Shown piece by piece: positions 12,164 through 41,215 of a DNA stretch of 54,751 nt; the first letter of the stretch is position 1; each line of letters begins with the position of its first letter. This stretch comes from a virus. Taxonomy: Duplodnaviria; Heunggongvirae; Uroviricota; Caudoviricetes. The notes under the pieces were generated by a model. The model saw nothing but the letters and a program-made list of their open reading frames with translations. It was not told the origin of the DNA and did not search any database. The stretch lies in IMG/VR virus record IMGVR_UViG_2579779067_000001, one strand, 5' to 3'. The translations under genes were made by a program, and so were the position numbers.

Positions 12164-13159
12164 GTGACCGTGAGAGCACTACTGACTTCTGAAATTGCCC
12201 CGCGTATGGGGATCGTATTGTTCAGGCCAGGTTCAGAGCTGATGCCCCTGTTTATGCAGGGGCGTGTCCTGCTGGAGCCTGAGCCGGAACGTTATTCATC
12301 TTTCGCCAGTGGTGCCGTTCCGGCGGCATCACAACCGCTGGTGGATGATCCTGCCGTTCGGGCCGTGTTCCGCAATGAGGCAGTGATCCGTCGTGCTGGT
12401 GGCGTGGAATGTCTTGAAAGCTGGTTACTTCGTGAAAAGGGCTGTCAGTGGCCTCATTCCGACTGGCACAGCGAGAACATTACCACAATGCGACACGCTC
12501 CGGGCGCAATCCGTCTGTGCTGGCACTGCGATAACCAGCTGCGCGATCAGTTCACGGAACGGCTGGAATCAATGGCAACGGATAACTGTGCCCGCTGGGT
12601 GTTGTCTGTTGTGCGTCGGGATCTCGGTTTTGATGACAGTCACGTTGTGACAATGCCGGAACTGTGCTGGTGGCTGATTCGTAATGACCTGGCGGATGCC
12701 TTACCGGAAAGTGCAGCCCGTAAGGCACTGAGATTACCGAAGCCTGTTGTGCCGTCTGTCACCCGGGAAAGTGACCTTGTGCCTTCGGTTCCTGCCACCA
12801 GCATCATCCAGGATAAGGCGAAAAAGATGCTGGCGCTGAAAGTGGATCCGGAGTCGCCGGAGTCTTTTATGTTACGCCCCAAACGTCGCCGCTGGGTTAA
12901 TGAAAAGTACACGCGCTGGGTTAAGACGCAGCCGTGCGCATGTTGTGGAAAGCCTGCTGATGATGCCCACCACCTGATAGGTCACGGTCAGGGTGGAATG
13001 GGTACAAAAGCGCATGACCTTTTTGTGTTGCCTTTGTGCAGAAAGCATCACGACGAGCTGCATGCGGATACCGTGGTATTTGAAGAGAAGTATGGCTCCC
13101 AGTTGGAGCTGATATTTCGTTTTATTGATCGTGCGCTGGCAATTGGCGTGCTGGCCTGA
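12164..13159 (+). CDS. prophage protein with C-terminal Cys/His zinc-binding nuclease-like domain (DUF968/YbcO-like)
   Basis: 331 aa; GTG start; C-terminal CACCGKPADDAHHL...CRKHHDELH motif; nin-region position before Q. Confidence 0.5.
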   Translation: MTVRALLTSEIAPRMGIVLFRPGSELMPLFMQGRVLLEPEPERYSSFASGAVPAASQPLVDDPAVRAVFRNEAVIRRAGGVECLESWLLREKGCQWPHSDWHSENITTMRHAPGAIRLCWHCDNQLRDQFTERLESMATDNCARWVLSVVRRDLGFDDSHVVTMPELCWWLIRNDLADALPESAARKALRLPKPVVPSVTRESDLVPSVPATSIIQDKAKKMLALKVDPESPESFMLRPKRRRWVNEKYTRWVKTQPCACCGKPADDAHHLIGHGQGGMGTKAHDLFVLPLCRKHHDELHADTVVFEEKYGSQLELIFRFIDRALAIGVLA

Positions 13160-13173
13160 TTTGGTGGAGAAAG

Positions 13174-13524
13174 TTGATGCGTGATATGTATGAAGTATTG
13201 GACCGCTGGGGAGCATGGGCTGCAGCAGAAAATAGTGGTGTGGACTGGCAGCCGATAGCGGCTGGTTTCAAGGGACTTTTACCACACGGTAAAAAGTCAC
13301 GTCTCCAGTGTGATGATGATGAAGGCATCATGATAGATAGTTGTGTGGCTAGGTTGCGTAAATATAAGCCGGAAGAGTATGAGCTGATAATTGCTCACTT
13401 TGTTATCGGTATCTCATTACGCACTATTGCGAAGAAGAGAAAATGCTCTGATGGGACTATAAGAAAAAAGTTGCAAGCTGCATTGGGATTTATTGATGCA
13501 GTTATATATATAATACATGGGTAA
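13174..13524 (+). CDS. antitermination protein Q (QuuD-like small Q)
   Basis: 116 aa; strong resemblance to DLP12 QuuD (LERWGAWAA...IAAGFKGL...RLQCDDD); position just before lysis module. Confidence 0.75.
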   Translation: MMRDMYEVLDRWGAWAAAENSGVDWQPIAAGFKGLLPHGKKSRLQCDDDEGIMIDSCVARLRKYKPEEYELIIAHFVIGISLRTIAKKRKCSDGTIRKKLQAALGFIDAVIYIIHG

Positions 13525-13531
13525 TTTATTA

Positions 13532-13550
13532 GACGGCCATATTGGCCGTC
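13532..13550. terminator. bidirectional hairpin between convergent Q and moron genes
   Basis: perfect inverted repeat GACGGCCA-TAT-TGGCCGTC in AT-rich context. Confidence 0.5.
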
Positions 13551-14736
13551 AGCTAAATAAATATGTAATAGCATAAGGCGTAAGTAAAAAGTAGAATCTA
13601 AATGTAAGATATAAGCCACATAAAACTATAATTCCTAATGAGGCAAAAACAACTTTCTGAACAAGCAATCTTGTGGTTAAACTATCAAATGTATCCTTTA
13701 TATCTTCGTAAATAGCCTTGAAGTTATATTCTGCTTGTTGTTTTTTATGATTTAACTCATCATTTATTGCTGTTAAAGTTTGCCATTGATTAAATAGAAC
13801 AAATAGAATCATAATAGTGAAGAACAATGCACCCAACACTACAGCTGTGTTTATTAATGCTTGACTATCCCAACCATTAGCCTGCTTCATTTGAGTCGCA
13901 ACGATAATTGTTGCGACGGGGATACCTAATATCTGATTTTGTATGTCACTGAATACTTTATGTATTTTCCCCATCTCTTCTATTTTGGCTACTCGTAACT
14001 GATCCAGTATTTTCTCGTAAGAAAAACCAGAAACGAATACTTTGTATCCTTTTTGATAACTTTCATAAAGTTGTCCTAAATCCCTTAACATGAAGGAAAA
14101 AGAGGTTTCTTTAGTTTTAGATTCACATGATGATTTTATACTACTTGCTAAAATAGTAAGTTTTTGATCTTTATGCGTATCTTCTGCAAAGTTTGCGATC
14201 AAATTATGAATCAGATCTCCATTAACATTCATAAGATCATCGCTAGAATAATTTACTGGAATTTTTAGTACGTTGGATTCGACGAATACCAATTCAAAAT
14301 TTGTTTCATCTAAATAAGCAGAACAATCTTTGAATAAAGTAATTAAGCTCAAAACATCTCTGTACTTGGATATAATAGCAGGCGACTTTTTATCCCTGTT
14401 GTGATAATTAAGTTCGATTATAAAGAAGTTACTGGCTTCCTTTATCCTATTTTTAGGATTTTTTAAATACTCATTAAAAGAGAAATGTAGCTGCCCCAAT
14501 CGTAATTTGGGGGGGGTTATATGTAAGGTTATAGTTTGGCCTAACTCAATGTTGCCAGATTCAAGGGTGATGCCAAAATCATGGGGATTCTCTGTGATAT
14601 CGTTGATGATGTCACAGAGCTCCTCGTTTGAAAGAATGAGTGATGCTTCAGATAGGGTACCTGCAAATGTAGCGGCCTTGTAAATAGTCACTAAGTCTTT
14701 GAAGGTTCTCTGATTGTTACTGCTCATCCTCTTCAC
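13549..14736 (-). CDS. membrane protein of unknown function (soluble N-terminal domain + 2-3 C-terminal TM helices)
   Basis: 395-aa ORF; AT-rich; hydrophobic segments ALINTAVVLGALFFTIMILFVLF and VVFASLGIIVLCGLYLTFRFYFLL; 20-nt overlap with upstream gene. Confidence 0.7.
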   Translation of the reverse strand: MKRMSSNNQRTFKDLVTIYKAATFAGTLSEASLILSNEELCDIINDITENPHDFGITLESGNIELGQTITLHITPPKLRLGQLHFSFNEYLKNPKNRIKEASNFFIIELNYHNRDKKSPAIISKYRDVLSLITLFKDCSAYLDETNFELVFVESNVLKIPVNYSSDDLMNVNGDLIHNLIANFAEDTHKDQKLTILASSIKSSCESKTKETSFSFMLRDLGQLYESYQKGYKVFVSGFSYEKILDQLRVAKIEEMGKIHKVFSDIQNQILGIPVATIIVATQMKQANGWDSQALINTAVVLGALFFTIMILFVLFNQWQTLTAINDELNHKKQQAEYNFKAIYEDIKDTFDSLTTRLLVQKVVFASLGIIVLCGLYLTFRFYFLLTPYAITYLFS

Positions 14737-15751
14737 CTAATTCTGATAAGATCTCTGATCTTAGCGTATCCGGAATCTCGGTAAGTATCAATTTATCGTT
14801 TTCTGAATCATAAAGAACGCTGCCATCATGCAAGGCCGCACGCTCGAATTTCAGAGACCAATGTTTGGACTTTCCTTTGAAACTAACAAGCCCACGTATA
14901 ACGTTGCCATCAGGCACGAACCCATCAGAGAACTCCAGATCGTCATTGGTTAACTTTTCAACTAACAACTCAGGAGCAGTTGGCCATATCTCGTTTGCAA
15001 AAATTTGAGTGTCGAAAGTTTCACCAGAACGATTTAAATTTTTTAATTTTTCATGAGCCTTATTTAGGAACTCTTCACGTGCCTCTGGTTCAAAACCTCT
15101 TTCAGTAGCAAATTCTAAAAGTGCATTCCGTAATTTTGTTGTTTCTTGTTTGGCAATTAGAATATCGTTGCAACCTAAAAACTTTTTGAAATAACCTGCT
15201 ACTGAATTTTGCCCCTTTAGAAAGCTAATATATCTCTCTTTGCCATTCTGGCGCCCAGTTAAGTCAATTCGTCCCGCTACTCGAAGTTTAGCAATGTCTA
15301 GATATTCACTTTCTTGAATTTCAAAATCGTGGACTGAAGAGCCAACTGCTGATGTTAGGATTGCAACCATCAAATAATGATTTCCATTTACCTCATTATG
15401 GGCAATTATTACATAACCACCAGTAGACATTGATTCATCATCGGCTCTGGCTTTTAAATGATTGATCATTCGGATACTAGTATCATAAAAACTATGTGTT
15501 TTATTTACGAAATAATCATCAACGATATTACCCATAGGGTAACTATCGCGGTCATCTTCAAATTTCCCATATCCTTTACCTGCTCTCCCAGAGTACCTTT
15601 CAGTAAGTGCGTTAGAGAGGTCTTTTGATGCTTGCTGAACAGGTTTTTCTGAAGGACAAGGAATAATGGTGGCTAACCCCTGTTGTTCCTTGTTCATAAT
15701 GTGAACAATAAACTTATGAGTGATATTAGTGGGGGTCGCTGATGCAGTCAT
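14717..15751 (-). CDS. YejK/NdpA-family nucleoid-associated protein homolog
   Basis: 344 aa; by-eye alignment to E. coli YejK (GGYVIIAHNEVNGNHYLMVAILTS vs [30 protein letters not shown]...ERYISFLKG vs RIDLTE...TRYLTFLKG); AGGA SD before ATG. Confidence 0.75.
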   Translation of the reverse strand: MTASATPTNITHKFIVHIMNKEQQGLATIIPCPSEKPVQQASKDLSNALTERYSGRAGKGYGKFEDDRDSYPMGNIVDDYFVNKTHSFYDTSIRMINHLKARADDESMSTGGYVIIAHNEVNGNHYLMVAILTSAVGSSVHDFEIQESEYLDIAKLRVAGRIDLTGRQNGKERYISFLKGQNSVAGYFKKFLGCNDILIAKQETTKLRNALLEFATERGFEPEAREEFLNKAHEKLKNLNRSGETFDTQIFANEIWPTAPELLVEKLTNDDLEFSDGFVPDGNVIRGLVSFKGKSKHWSLKFERAALHDGSVLYDSENDKLILTEIPDTLRSEILSELGEEDEQ

Positions 15752-15867: not shown

Positions 15868-15897
15868 AAACCCGCCGTCGAGCGGGTTTTGTCGTTT
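15868..15897 (+). terminator. tR'-like rho-independent terminator upstream of holin (Q target region)
   Basis: AACCCGC-CGTCGA-GCGGGTTTT hairpin plus T-run, about 150 nt upstream of holin. Confidence 0.5.
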
Positions 15898-16041: not shown

Positions 16042-16368
16042 ATGCCTCATAACCCAAATACTTGGCTGGAGTTGGTCCAGAGCTGGTGGCGTGGAGACAC
16101 ACCGCTGGGCGCAGTGATTATGTCGATTGTTATGGCTGGTTTGCGCATTGCCTATTTTGGCGGTGGTGGTGGCTGGAAGCGAAAAACACTCGAAATTCTA
16201 CTCTGTGGCGCTCTGACGCTGACTTTTGCATCCGCTCTTGAGTATGTCGGATGGCCTAAATCGCTTTCTGTTGCCATTGGTGGTGGGGTGGGGCTGATCG
16301 GTGTCGATGCTATTCGTGGGGCTGCAATGAGAGTAATCGGTAATAAGTTTGGTGGCTCTAAGGAGTAA
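16042..16368 (+). CDS. holin (lambda S-like)
   Basis: 108 aa; hydrophobic helices and charged C-terminus; precedes endolysin. Confidence 0.8.
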   Translation: MPHNPNTWLELVQSWWRGDTPLGAVIMSIVMAGLRIAYFGGGGGWKRKTLEILLCGALTLTFASALEYVGWPKSLSVAIGGGVGLIGVDAIRGAAMRVIGNKFGGSKE

Positions 16369-40266: not shown

Positions 40267-40275
40267 GGGGGGGGG
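40267..40275. repeat. homopolymeric G9 tract
   Basis: nine consecutive G between GIY-YIG-like gene and acyltransferase gene. Confidence 0.8.

Positions 40276-40345: not shown

Positions 40346-41215
<870 letters not shown>

What the first reader, a model, noticed from the sequence alone, without database searches (positions are those of the whole stretch)
14509..14516. G8/C8 homopolymer inside the coding sequence of the moron membrane protein
Eight consecutive G (C8 on the coding strand, encoding the PP of ...ITPPKLRLGQ...) lie in an otherwise AT-rich gene. Tracts of this length are prone to slipped-strand frameshifts, a possible ON/OFF contingency switch for the membrane protein.
Basis: partly seen in the sequence, partly recalled or inferred. 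Interest (0 to 1): 0.4.

Follow-up and report, generated by a model that had tools for sequence, protein, structure and literature searches.

The report
Slippage-prone C8 run in defence gene
A run of eight G/C bases inside a prophage-borne anti-phage defence gene really does change length (6, 7 or 9) in a few percent of sequenced E. coli strains and then cuts the protein short, so it is a genuine frameshift hotspot, but nothing yet shows that it is a fast, evolved on/off switch.

Summary
The G8 (C8 on the coding strand) is exactly at 14509-14516. It encodes ACC CCC CCC = T71-P72-P73 of a 392-aa, 33 % GC, minus-strand gene.

The gene is the downstream partner of a YejK/NA37-like nucleoid-associated protein gene, in a two-gene moron between antiterminator Q and the holin. 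The pair matches type II PANGU (Pag2A sensor + Pag2B membrane effector) in architecture. It is remotely homologous to the validated DS-1 system, and DefensePredictor lists both proteins by accession as predicted defence genes.

- Public assemblies hold C9, C7 and C6 alleles that truncate the protein to 83-87 aa.
- The −1 and +1 alleles each occur on two allelic backgrounds, so there were at least 4 events.
- About 17 contigs are off-length against at least 416 in frame (4 % or less).

All 16 complete RefSeq carriers are in frame: 11 C8, and 5 with a synonymous C7A4.

About 100 orthologous loci encode the PP without a run. One Citrobacter-type lineage evolved C8 independently.

Best reading: a real, recurrent slippage hotspot that knocks out an abortive-infection effector, at most a slow switch. 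Switching rate, reversibility and phenotype are untested.

The parts
14509..14516 (-). C8 homopolymer (G8 on + strand): last two bases of ACC(T71) plus CCC(P72) plus CCC(P73). This is the slippage-prone tract.
   Evidence: Length variants C6, C7 and C9, and the substitution variant C7A4, were found in other strains.
14506..14508 (-). AAA (K74) immediately 3' of the tract on the coding strand. The recurrent synonymous CCC->CCA change turns C8A3 into C7A4. One contig has C7A5.
   Evidence: P0137.
13549..14727 (-). Effector gene (392 aa from the ATG at 14727; an upstream in-frame GTG at 14736 would give 395 aa). RefSeq WP_000097747.1, 'hypothetical protein'. N-terminal alpha/beta domain plus long C-terminal helices. 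Pag2B-like and a remote relative of DS-1B.
   Evidence: DefensePredictor lists the accession.
13774..13866 (-). Hydrophobic segment aa 288-318 (predicted TM helix), lost in all frameshift alleles.
   Evidence: Kyte-Doolittle mean 2.72; the AF2 model has helix 288-335.
13576..13680 (-). Hydrophobic segment aa 350-384 (predicted TM helix), lost in all frameshift alleles.
   Evidence: Kyte-Doolittle mean 2.26; the AF2 model has helix 337-382.
14717..15751 (-). Upstream partner gene: YejK/NA37-like nucleoid-associated protein (344 aa, WP_000127202.1). It overlaps the effector's start by 11 nt. Pag2A-like sensor.
   Evidence: Pfam PF04245, E 8.3e-69. NCBIfam YejK, E 2.9e-48, and DS1_1_antiphage, E 2.8e-15. 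It lies directly upstream of the effector in every orthologous locus that has upstream sequence.
13174..13524 (+). Antiterminator Q gene; left border of the moron (context).
   Evidence: Pfam Phage_antitermQ, E 1.2e-44.
16042..16368 (+). Lambda-family holin S gene; right border of the moron (context).
   Evidence: Pfam Phage_holin_3_1, E 5.7e-25; RefSeq annotation.

Best explanation
The C8 run is a replication-slippage hotspot in the effector gene of a prophage-encoded two-gene abortive-infection system. That system pairs a YejK-like nucleoid-associated sensor with a membrane effector. It has the architecture of type II PANGU and is a remote relative of DS-1.

Gain or loss of one C shifts the frame after P73. 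Translation then stops after 11-14 foreign residues, giving an 84- or 87-aa fragment. The fragment lacks the conserved core and both transmembrane helices. The sensor gene is untouched but, by analogy with PANGU, cannot defend alone.

Such OFF alleles arise repeatedly in nature, are inherited clonally, and stay rare, so the in-frame state is normally favoured. The run looks like a by-product of codon drift at a conserved Pro-Pro, perhaps helped by misalignment-driven 'healing' of interrupted runs, rather than a conserved device. It can act as a slow and in principle reversible ON/OFF switch. From E. coli mutation-accumulation data I infer about 1e-4 per generation without mismatch repair, and roughly two orders of magnitude less with it.

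Shown: the tract, its natural length alleles, their recurrence, and the truncated products. Inferred: slippage as the cause, the rates, reversibility, and loss of defence.
For: Length alleles:
- C9 in L011, L014 and L015; C7 in L012; C6 in L013. C8 or C7A4 in 16 complete genomes and 7 IMG/metagenome loci.
- L011 and L015 have no other homopolymer indel across 5.3 kb, so they are not error-prone assemblies.

Exact-sequence look-ups:
- 87-aa (C7) fragment on the N4 and K4 allelic backgrounds (3 + 5 contigs, including HAN3815922/HAN4749083/HAN4777566, with the adjacent 267-aa C-terminal ORF HAN3815923...).
- 84-aa (C9) fragment on both backgrounds (3 + 2 contigs, including the adjacent pair KHI42620/KHI42619).
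- 83-aa (C6) fragment, 1 + 1 contigs.
- In-frame 392-aa alleles, at least 416 contigs.

Recurrence: off-length tracts sit on three different DNA haplotypes.

Dominant lesion: apart from these tract-linked fragments (83-91 aa N-terminal; 267/316 aa C-terminal) and two unexamined ones, all shortened cluster members listed are contig-end partials.

Rate context: in MMR-deficient E. coli, 95 indels hit four 8-G.C runs in about 250,000 generations, and indel rate rises exponentially with run length (PMC8510543).

Defence context:
- NA37 partner.
- NCBIfam DS1_1/DS1_2 hits.
- hhalign to DS-1B, probability 94 %.
- DefensePredictor lists WP_000097747.1 and WP_000127202.1 as predicted defence genes.
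- In the PANGU preprint both genes are needed for defence.
Against: - No read-level or experimental data were available. Rates in mismatch-repair-proficient cells are my extrapolation.
- Some off-length assemblies are suspect. L013 has three other homopolymer indels. L012 and L014 each have another G3->G2 deletion. Both C6 look-ups are single short Logan contigs.
- No OFF-to-ON reversion was demonstrated, so one-way decay of a cryptic prophage explains the same data. L011 and L015 also carry a frameshift in the DUF968 gene, and L014 one in the NA37 gene.
- Contig counts mix sources and clones and are not independent samples.
- The independent origin of the same C8 in a Citrobacter-type lineage hints at more than accident.
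Confidence: 0.62

Rival explanations
1. True contingency locus. The run is maintained by selection for switchability, so lysogens stochastically turn a costly abortive-infection effector OFF and ON again, as with phase-variable restriction-modification genes of Neisseria or Haemophilus.
For: - Both +1 and -1 alleles recur on different backgrounds.
- The tract lies early in the gene (nt 212 of 1179), so OFF is a clean null.
- An identical C8 arose independently at the same two Pro codons in a lineage only 74.5 % identical in DNA. That lineage's nearest relatives have CCA CCA or CCA CCG, and there is no shared recombination patch.
- The chance of such a run under family codon usage is 0.0017.
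- Homopolymers of only 7-9 nt are accepted as phase-variation sites in M. tuberculosis, even at about 3e-8 per generation (PMC10334774).
Against: - The run is absent from about 90 other orthologous loci.
- OFF alleles are 4 % or less, and 0 of 16 in complete genomes.
- The run-shortening synonymous allele C7A4 is frequent and itself recurrent, which argues against selection to keep C8.
- No reversion events were seen.
- E. coli has active mismatch repair, so rates are expected to be far below classical contingency loci.
- No frameshift fragments were found for the Citrobacter-type lineage, though only about 4 contigs exist.
Confidence: 0.2
2. The tract is biologically inert, and the length differences are sequencing or assembly errors at a homopolymer.
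For: - L013 (C6) carries three more homopolymer indels within 5 kb, and L012 and L014 carry further 1-nt deletions in G3 runs.
- The C6 fragments come from single short Logan contigs.
- All RefSeq complete genomes are in frame.
Against: - The same C7 or C9 allele recurs in several independent isolates and submissions, with adjacent split ORFs annotated (HAN3815922/3, HAN4749083/4, HAN4777566/7; KHI42619/20).
- L015's contig was seen in 4 samples. L011 was seen in 2 samples, with 4 similar places.
- L011 and L015 show no other homopolymer indel, despite many A/T runs of 6-8 nt in the region.
Confidence: 0.08
3. The run acts at RNA or protein level rather than as a DNA switch, for example through transcriptional slippage, or through Pro-Pro ribosome stalling that tunes effector dosage.
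For: - P73 is invariant and P72 common in the family, so a PP dipeptide is conserved.
- Homopolymers can cause RNA polymerase slippage (general knowledge, not tested here).
Against: - Orthologues keep PP without any run, so the run itself is not needed for a PP-related effect.
- Transcriptional slippage is best known for A/T runs of 9 or more, not C8 (my knowledge).
- Nothing in the data requires it.
Confidence: 0.03

Closest known systems
Simple-sequence contingency loci (poly-G/C tracts inside ORFs of Neisseria, Haemophilus, Campylobacter and Helicobacter, including phase-variable restriction-modification genes)
   Same: - A mononucleotide G/C run sits inside the 5' part of an ORF.
- A +/-1 slippage gives a truncated null product.
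- Length alleles differ between strains.
- The gene concerns interaction with phages.
   Different: - The run is only 8 nt long, in a mismatch-repair-proficient enterobacterium.
- OFF alleles are rare (4 % or less) and clonally stable.
- The tract is not conserved among orthologues.
- No switching rate or reversion has been measured.
Homopolymer-tract 'phase variation' in the Mycobacterium tuberculosis complex (e.g. glpK 7C; PMC10334774)
   Same: - Short (7-9 nt) G/C runs in ordinary genes.
- Homoplasic frameshift alleles detected by comparing many genomes.
- A low absolute rate (3.1e-8 per generation measured for a 7G tract), yet recurrent.
   Different: - There, thousands of genomes, a formal homoplasy statistic, experiments and reversions are available.
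- Here there are only about 17 off-length contigs, and at least 4 inferred events.
8-G.C runs of E. coli leuP/Q/V/T tRNA genes as indel hotspots (PMC8510543)
   Same: Same organism and same run length and composition. This gives the only direct rate estimate: 95 indels in 4 runs over about 250,000 generations, or about 1e-4 per run per generation in MMR-deficient lines.
   Different: - Those runs are in essential RNA genes and were measured in MMR-defective laboratory lines.
- The present run is in a dispensable, horizontally acquired protein gene.
Type II PANGU (Pag2A NAP sensor + Pag2B transmembrane effector; bioRxiv 10.64898/2026.04.06.716658) and DS-1 of DefensePredictor (WP_000355468.1 + WP_000150292.1; PMC13092281)
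   Same: - A bicistronic operon with the YejK/NA37-like protein first, then a protein of about 400 aa with a soluble N-terminal domain and C-terminal TM helices.
- Found on mobile elements.
- Sequence relation to DS-1: NCBIfam DS1_1 E 2.8e-15, DS1_2 E 1.6e-19; hhalign probability 94 %.
   Different: - Scores are far below the NCBIfam equivalog cut-offs (56 vs 330 bits, 70 vs 315 bits).
- BLASTP identity to DS-1B is 28 % over 104 aa.
- The N-terminal domain here is only mildly acidic (net -6).
- Neither paper's main text (searched only for other terms) nor the DefensePredictor supplement passages retrieved mention a homopolymer or phase variation.

Membership tests
Slipped-strand (simple-sequence) contingency locus | Mononucleotide or short tandem repeat within the ORF or promoter, positioned so that a length change alters expression | tested here: met
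   C8 at nt 212-219 of a 1179-nt ORF. C7 gives 87 aa, C9 gives 84 aa and C6 gives 83 aa.
Slipped-strand (simple-sequence) contingency locus | Tract length polymorphic among strains | tested here: met
   C6, C7, C8 and C9 are seen in DNA loci. The matching truncated proteins occur in at least 17 contigs on two allelic backgrounds and on three DNA haplotypes. Caveat: a few assemblies are error-prone.
Slipped-strand (simple-sequence) contingency locus | High-frequency (roughly 1e-5 per generation or more), reversible switching within a clonal population | not testable with these tools
   No reads or cultures were available. The only indirect figure is about 1e-4 per 8-G.C run per generation in MMR-deficient E. 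coli (PMC8510543). Expected rates are much lower with MMR (my extrapolation).
Slipped-strand (simple-sequence) contingency locus | Tract maintained by selection (conserved or over-represented beyond coding need) | tested here: inconclusive
   The run is absent from about 90 orthologous loci that encode the same PP with CCA/CCT/CCG, and the C7A4 allele is common. Against that, C8 arose independently in a Citrobacter-type lineage, and it is improbable under family codon usage (P = 0.0017).
Type II PANGU (Pag2A/Pag2B) | YejK-like nucleoid-associated protein gene | tested here: met
   Pfam NA37, E 8.3e-69; NCBIfam YejK, E 2.9e-48.
Type II PANGU (Pag2A/Pag2B) | Bicistronic operon (gap below 40 bp) with a downstream effector | tested here: met
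   The genes overlap by 11 nt (14717-14727). The same adjacency is seen in all orthologous loci with upstream sequence.
Type II PANGU (Pag2A/Pag2B) | Effector with a C-terminal transmembrane domain and an N-terminal acidic 'DNA-mimic' (DMK) domain | tested here: inconclusive
   TM segments at aa 288-318 and 350-384 and an N-terminal alpha/beta domain are present. The N-terminal part is only mildly acidic (pI 5.7, net -6). DNA mimicry cannot be judged.
Type II PANGU (Pag2A/Pag2B) | Sequence homology to a published Pag2A/Pag2B pair | not testable with these tools
   The preprint gives no sequences or accessions in the held text, and no supplements are held.
Type II PANGU (Pag2A/Pag2B) | Both genes required for phage defence (abortive infection) | not tested
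   Prediction only. DefensePredictor lists both accessions as 'Predicted novel defense gene' (scores about 12.0 and 9.1).
DS-1 (DefensePredictor; NCBIfam NF053868/NF053869) | Both proteins reach the equivalog cut-offs of DS1_1 and DS1_2 | tested here: not met
   56.2 bits against a cut-off of 330, and 70.3 bits against 315. These are remote relatives, not equivalogs. hhalign probability is 94 % and BLASTP E is 4e-7.

The most novel reading that the evidence does not exclude
A prophage-borne abortive-infection system of Enterobacteriaceae (NAP sensor + membrane effector) is under genuine slipped-strand phase variation. A C8 run has been recruited independently in the E. coli-type and Citrobacter-type lineages. 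It lets lysogen populations hedge between immunity and the cost of a suicidal effector. This would be an SSM-type contingency locus in E. coli, a species whose known phase variation relies on inversion and Dam methylation.
Probability: 0.17. Interest if true: 0.6.

Novelty: new member of a known kind. Interest (0 to 1): 0.4.

Why it matters
If the run switches at a useful rate, carriage of an abortive-infection system in E. coli lysogens would be heterogeneous within clones. That bears on phage-therapy escape, on the cost of suicidal immunity, and on how defence genes are lost from prophages.

Even as a plain hotspot it has practical value. Genome surveys will mis-score this defence system as absent or 'hypothetical' in a few percent of strains, because the effector is split into 84-87-aa and 267-aa ORFs. 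Homopolymer errors in long-read assemblies can mimic the same lesion.

The independent origin of the same run in two lineages is a small natural experiment on whether mutable tracts in defence genes are selected or merely tolerated.

Tried and rejected
- **PADLOC-DB:** no hit for either protein.
- **Plasmid collection:** no match.
- **Phage collection:** only one 76 %-identical Klebsiella phage, which lacks the run.
- **PDB Foldseek:** the AF2 model (pLDDT 80.9) gave nothing below E 0.27, so the effector fold stays unassigned.
- **Window-level enrichment of G8:** not significant.
- **Other tract alleles:** exact look-ups for in-frame C5 (391 aa) and C11 (393 aa), for C10 (88 aa) on both backgrounds, and for C7/C9 fragments of the Citrobacter-type lineage all returned nothing.
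- **Recombination patch:** I tested whether the two C8 lineages share one. They do not. Flanks differ, and local identity is 76-79 %.
- **Other truncating lesions:** I looked for one that would rival the tract. Of the shortened cluster members listed, all but four were contig-end partials or tract-linked. Two of those four are probable alternative start calls or were not examined (326-aa and 250-aa NA37 forms). P0142 (113 aa) and P0167 (85 aa) were also not examined.
- **PANGU preprint supplements:** none are held, so no sequence comparison was possible.
- **Literature search for a named 'DS-1' paper:** it resolved to DefensePredictor.
- **Programmed frameshifting or transcriptional slippage:** considered, but nothing supports it.

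Full report
**Observation**

The + strand has eight consecutive G at 14509-14516. They lie in a minus-strand ORF, 14727..13549: 392 aa from the ATG that RefSeq uses, or 395 aa from an upstream GTG. On the coding strand the run is nt 212-219, read as ACC CCC CCC AAA = T71-P72-P73-K74. The gene has 33.2 % GC in a 49.5 % GC window.

The only other G/C run of 8 or more in the window is a G9 at 40267-40275. Against dinucleotide shuffles of the whole window the run is not remarkable: 3 pattern matches against 1.36 +/- 1.65 expected, with 18 of 100 shuffles reaching 3. Within this gene it is unlikely. P is 0.0012 by base shuffling, and 0.0017 if the protein is back-translated with the codon usage of orthologues that lack the run. 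P is 0.05 if the gene's own codons, which include the tract's two CCC, are permuted.

**What the gene is**

Upstream, overlapping by 11 nt, is a 344-aa protein of the NA37/YejK nucleoid-associated family (Pfam E 8.3e-69; NCBIfam YejK E 2.9e-48). The pair lies on the opposite strand between antiterminator Q (13174-13524) and holin S (16042-16368) of a lambdoid prophage. That is a classical moron position.

The tract-bearing protein has no Pfam or PADLOC match and belongs to PHROG 5023, of unknown function. It has two strongly hydrophobic C-terminal segments, aa 288-318 and 350-384. The AlphaFold2 model (pLDDT 80.9) shows an N-terminal alpha/beta domain followed by three very long helices. No solved structure resembles it.

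In about 100 related loci from Gamma- and Betaproteobacteria, the NA37 gene is directly upstream wherever upstream sequence exists. The unit is therefore a conserved two-gene operon.

Three lines tie it to anti-phage defence.
1. A 2026 preprint defines 'type II PANGU' as exactly this architecture: Pag2A, a YejK-like sensor that leaves the nucleoid when phage degrades the chromosome, plus Pag2B, with an N-terminal domain and a C-terminal TM region. Both genes are required, and the phenotype is abortive infection (bioRxiv 10.64898/2026.04.06.716658).
2. DefensePredictor's supplementary table lists WP_000097747.1 and WP_000127202.1, the very accessions annotated on this cassette, as 'Predicted novel defense gene'.
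3. NCBIfam models built for that paper's validated system DS-1 hit both proteins weakly: DS1_1 E 2.8e-15 and DS1_2 E 1.6e-19, both far below the equivalog cut-offs. A profile of the family aligns to DS-1B over 277 columns at 94 % probability.

Membership in PANGU type II could not be tested by sequence, because none is given.

**Does the tract vary?**

Sixteen of 5,426 complete RefSeq E. coli genomes carry the cassette. All have the same length and an intact annotated gene. Eleven have C8. Five have C7A4, a synonymous CCC->CCA change that shortens the run.

The protein search, however, returned a 267-aa C-terminal fragment that is 100 % identical, with 30 member sequences. The contigs encoding it show the gene split by a tract of C9 (L011, L014, L015), C7 (L012) or C6 (L013).

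The assemblies differ in reliability:
- L011 and L015 have no other homopolymer indel over 5.3 kb. They share a non-homopolymer 1-nt deletion in the DUF968 gene.
- L013 has three further homopolymer indels, so it is unreliable.
- L012 and L014 each have another G3->G2 deletion.

Exact look-ups of the predicted truncated products gave these counts:

| Allele | Product | Contigs | Notes |
|---|---|---|---|
| C7 | 87 aa | 3 (N4 background) + 5 (K4 background) | three NCBI isolates, each with the 267-aa ORF annotated next to it |
| C9 | 84 aa | 3 + 2 on the same two backgrounds | includes the adjacent pair KHI42620/KHI42619 |
| C6 | 83 aa | 1 + 1 | short Logan contigs |
| C7A5 | 84 aa | 1 | |
| Doubly shifted | 91 aa | 1 | |
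| C5, C10, C11 | none | 0 | |

In-frame 392-aa alleles listed sum to at least 416 contigs. Off-length alleles are therefore about 17 contigs, 4 % or less. Only some of the 111 cluster members were listed, and contigs are not independent.

A SNP table of the 2.5-kb cassette puts C9, C7 and C6 on three different haplotypes, and C7A4 on two. I infer at least four independent slippage events: -1 and +1, each on two backgrounds. The border substitution also recurred, as expected from transient misalignment at a run end (my knowledge, not tested).

**Is the run conserved?**

P73 is invariant and P72 frequent in the family, but the run is not conserved. About 90 orthologous loci encode these residues as CCA CCA, CCG CCT, CCT CCA and so on, with C runs of 4 or less.

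There is one exception, a lineage found in Citrobacter (P0003/P0171; L038-40) that has GCC CCC CCC. It is only 74.5 % identical in DNA to the E. coli type. It nests among relatives with GCC CCA CCA or GCA CCA CCG, and it shares no recombination patch. The same C8 therefore arose twice. This could reflect selection for mutability. It could also reflect a mutational tendency to merge interrupted C runs (CCCC-A-CC).

**Mechanism and rate**

The products are computed, not assumed. Seventy-three native residues are followed by 11 (+1) or 14 (-1) foreign ones. The conserved core and both TM helices are lost.

For rate, the only direct E. coli figure I found is from mismatch-repair-defective mutation-accumulation lines. 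There were 95 indels in the four 8-G.C runs of leuPQVT over about 250,000 generations, or about 1e-4 per run per generation, with an exponential dependence on run length (PMC8510543). With functional mismatch repair I expect roughly two orders of magnitude less. This is from my recollection of the same laboratory's earlier work and was not checked here. For comparison, a 7G tract accepted as 'phase-variable' in mycobacteria slips at 3.1e-8 per generation (PMC10334774).

**Verdict**

The run is a genuine, recurrent frameshift hotspot that inactivates the effector of a probable abortive-infection system.

It should not yet be called a contingency switch:
- OFF alleles are rare and clonal.
- No reversion or within-culture heterogeneity could be examined.
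- A run-shortening synonymous allele is common.
- Almost all orthologues do without the run.

The independent second origin keeps the adaptive reading alive, at about 0.2. This is a new example of a known phenomenon, in an interesting and recently recognised class of defence genes.

Noticed in passing
window 40267-40275 (+): A G9 run, the only other G/C homopolymer of 8 or more in the window. It is intergenic, about 70 nt beyond the stop of ORF 40346..41170(-), which has a LEM-3-like GIY-YIG nuclease domain (Pfam E 2.7e-14). The 121-nt surround matches 8 complete E. coli genomes at 99 % or more. Tract length in them was not examined.
   Followed up: partly
L038-L040 (gene at 2501-3679; 2258-3436 in L040); relative P0171 from Citrobacter sp. 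CK196: An independent C8 run (GCC CCC CCC) at the same Pro-Pro codons, in a lineage 74.5 % identical in DNA to the window gene. Its closest relatives have GCC CCA CCA or GCA CCA CCG, and no shared recombination patch is seen.
   Followed up: yes
window 14509 (coding-strand CCC->CCA); loci L001, L002, L008-L010, L084: A synonymous substitution at the tract/A-run border turns C8A3 into C7A4. It occurs in 5 of 16 complete genomes and on two different haplotypes, which suggests recurrent misalignment-type substitution. One contig has C7A5 (P0137).
   Followed up: partly
window 13549-15751 and about 100 related loci (L007, L018-L130): The NA37-like gene and the membrane-protein gene are always adjacent and in the same order across Enterobacterales, Pseudomonas, Shewanella and several Betaproteobacteria. 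They are often flanked by phage Q and lysis genes. This is a widespread mobile two-gene module.
   Followed up: partly
window ~12797 (DUF968 gene 12164-13159) and ~15589 (NA37 gene); L001 2365-2760: Some carriers show further decay of the prophage. L011 and L015 have a 1-nt deletion in the DUF968 gene. L014 has a G3->G2 deletion that splits the NA37 gene. L001 has a truncated methyltransferase/DUF968 junction.
   Followed up: no
window 15868-15889 (+): A terminator-like GC-rich hairpin followed by a T-rich tail, between the moron and the holin gene. It may be the late-leader (tR'-like) terminator on which Q acts.
   Followed up: no
L016 and L017 (contig ends at window ~14388 and ~14370); partial proteins P0131, P0133, P0143-P0152: Many draft assemblies break inside this AT-rich gene, 120-140 nt from the tract or elsewhere. 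This produces numerous 'partial' protein records that could be mistaken for truncations.
   Followed up: no
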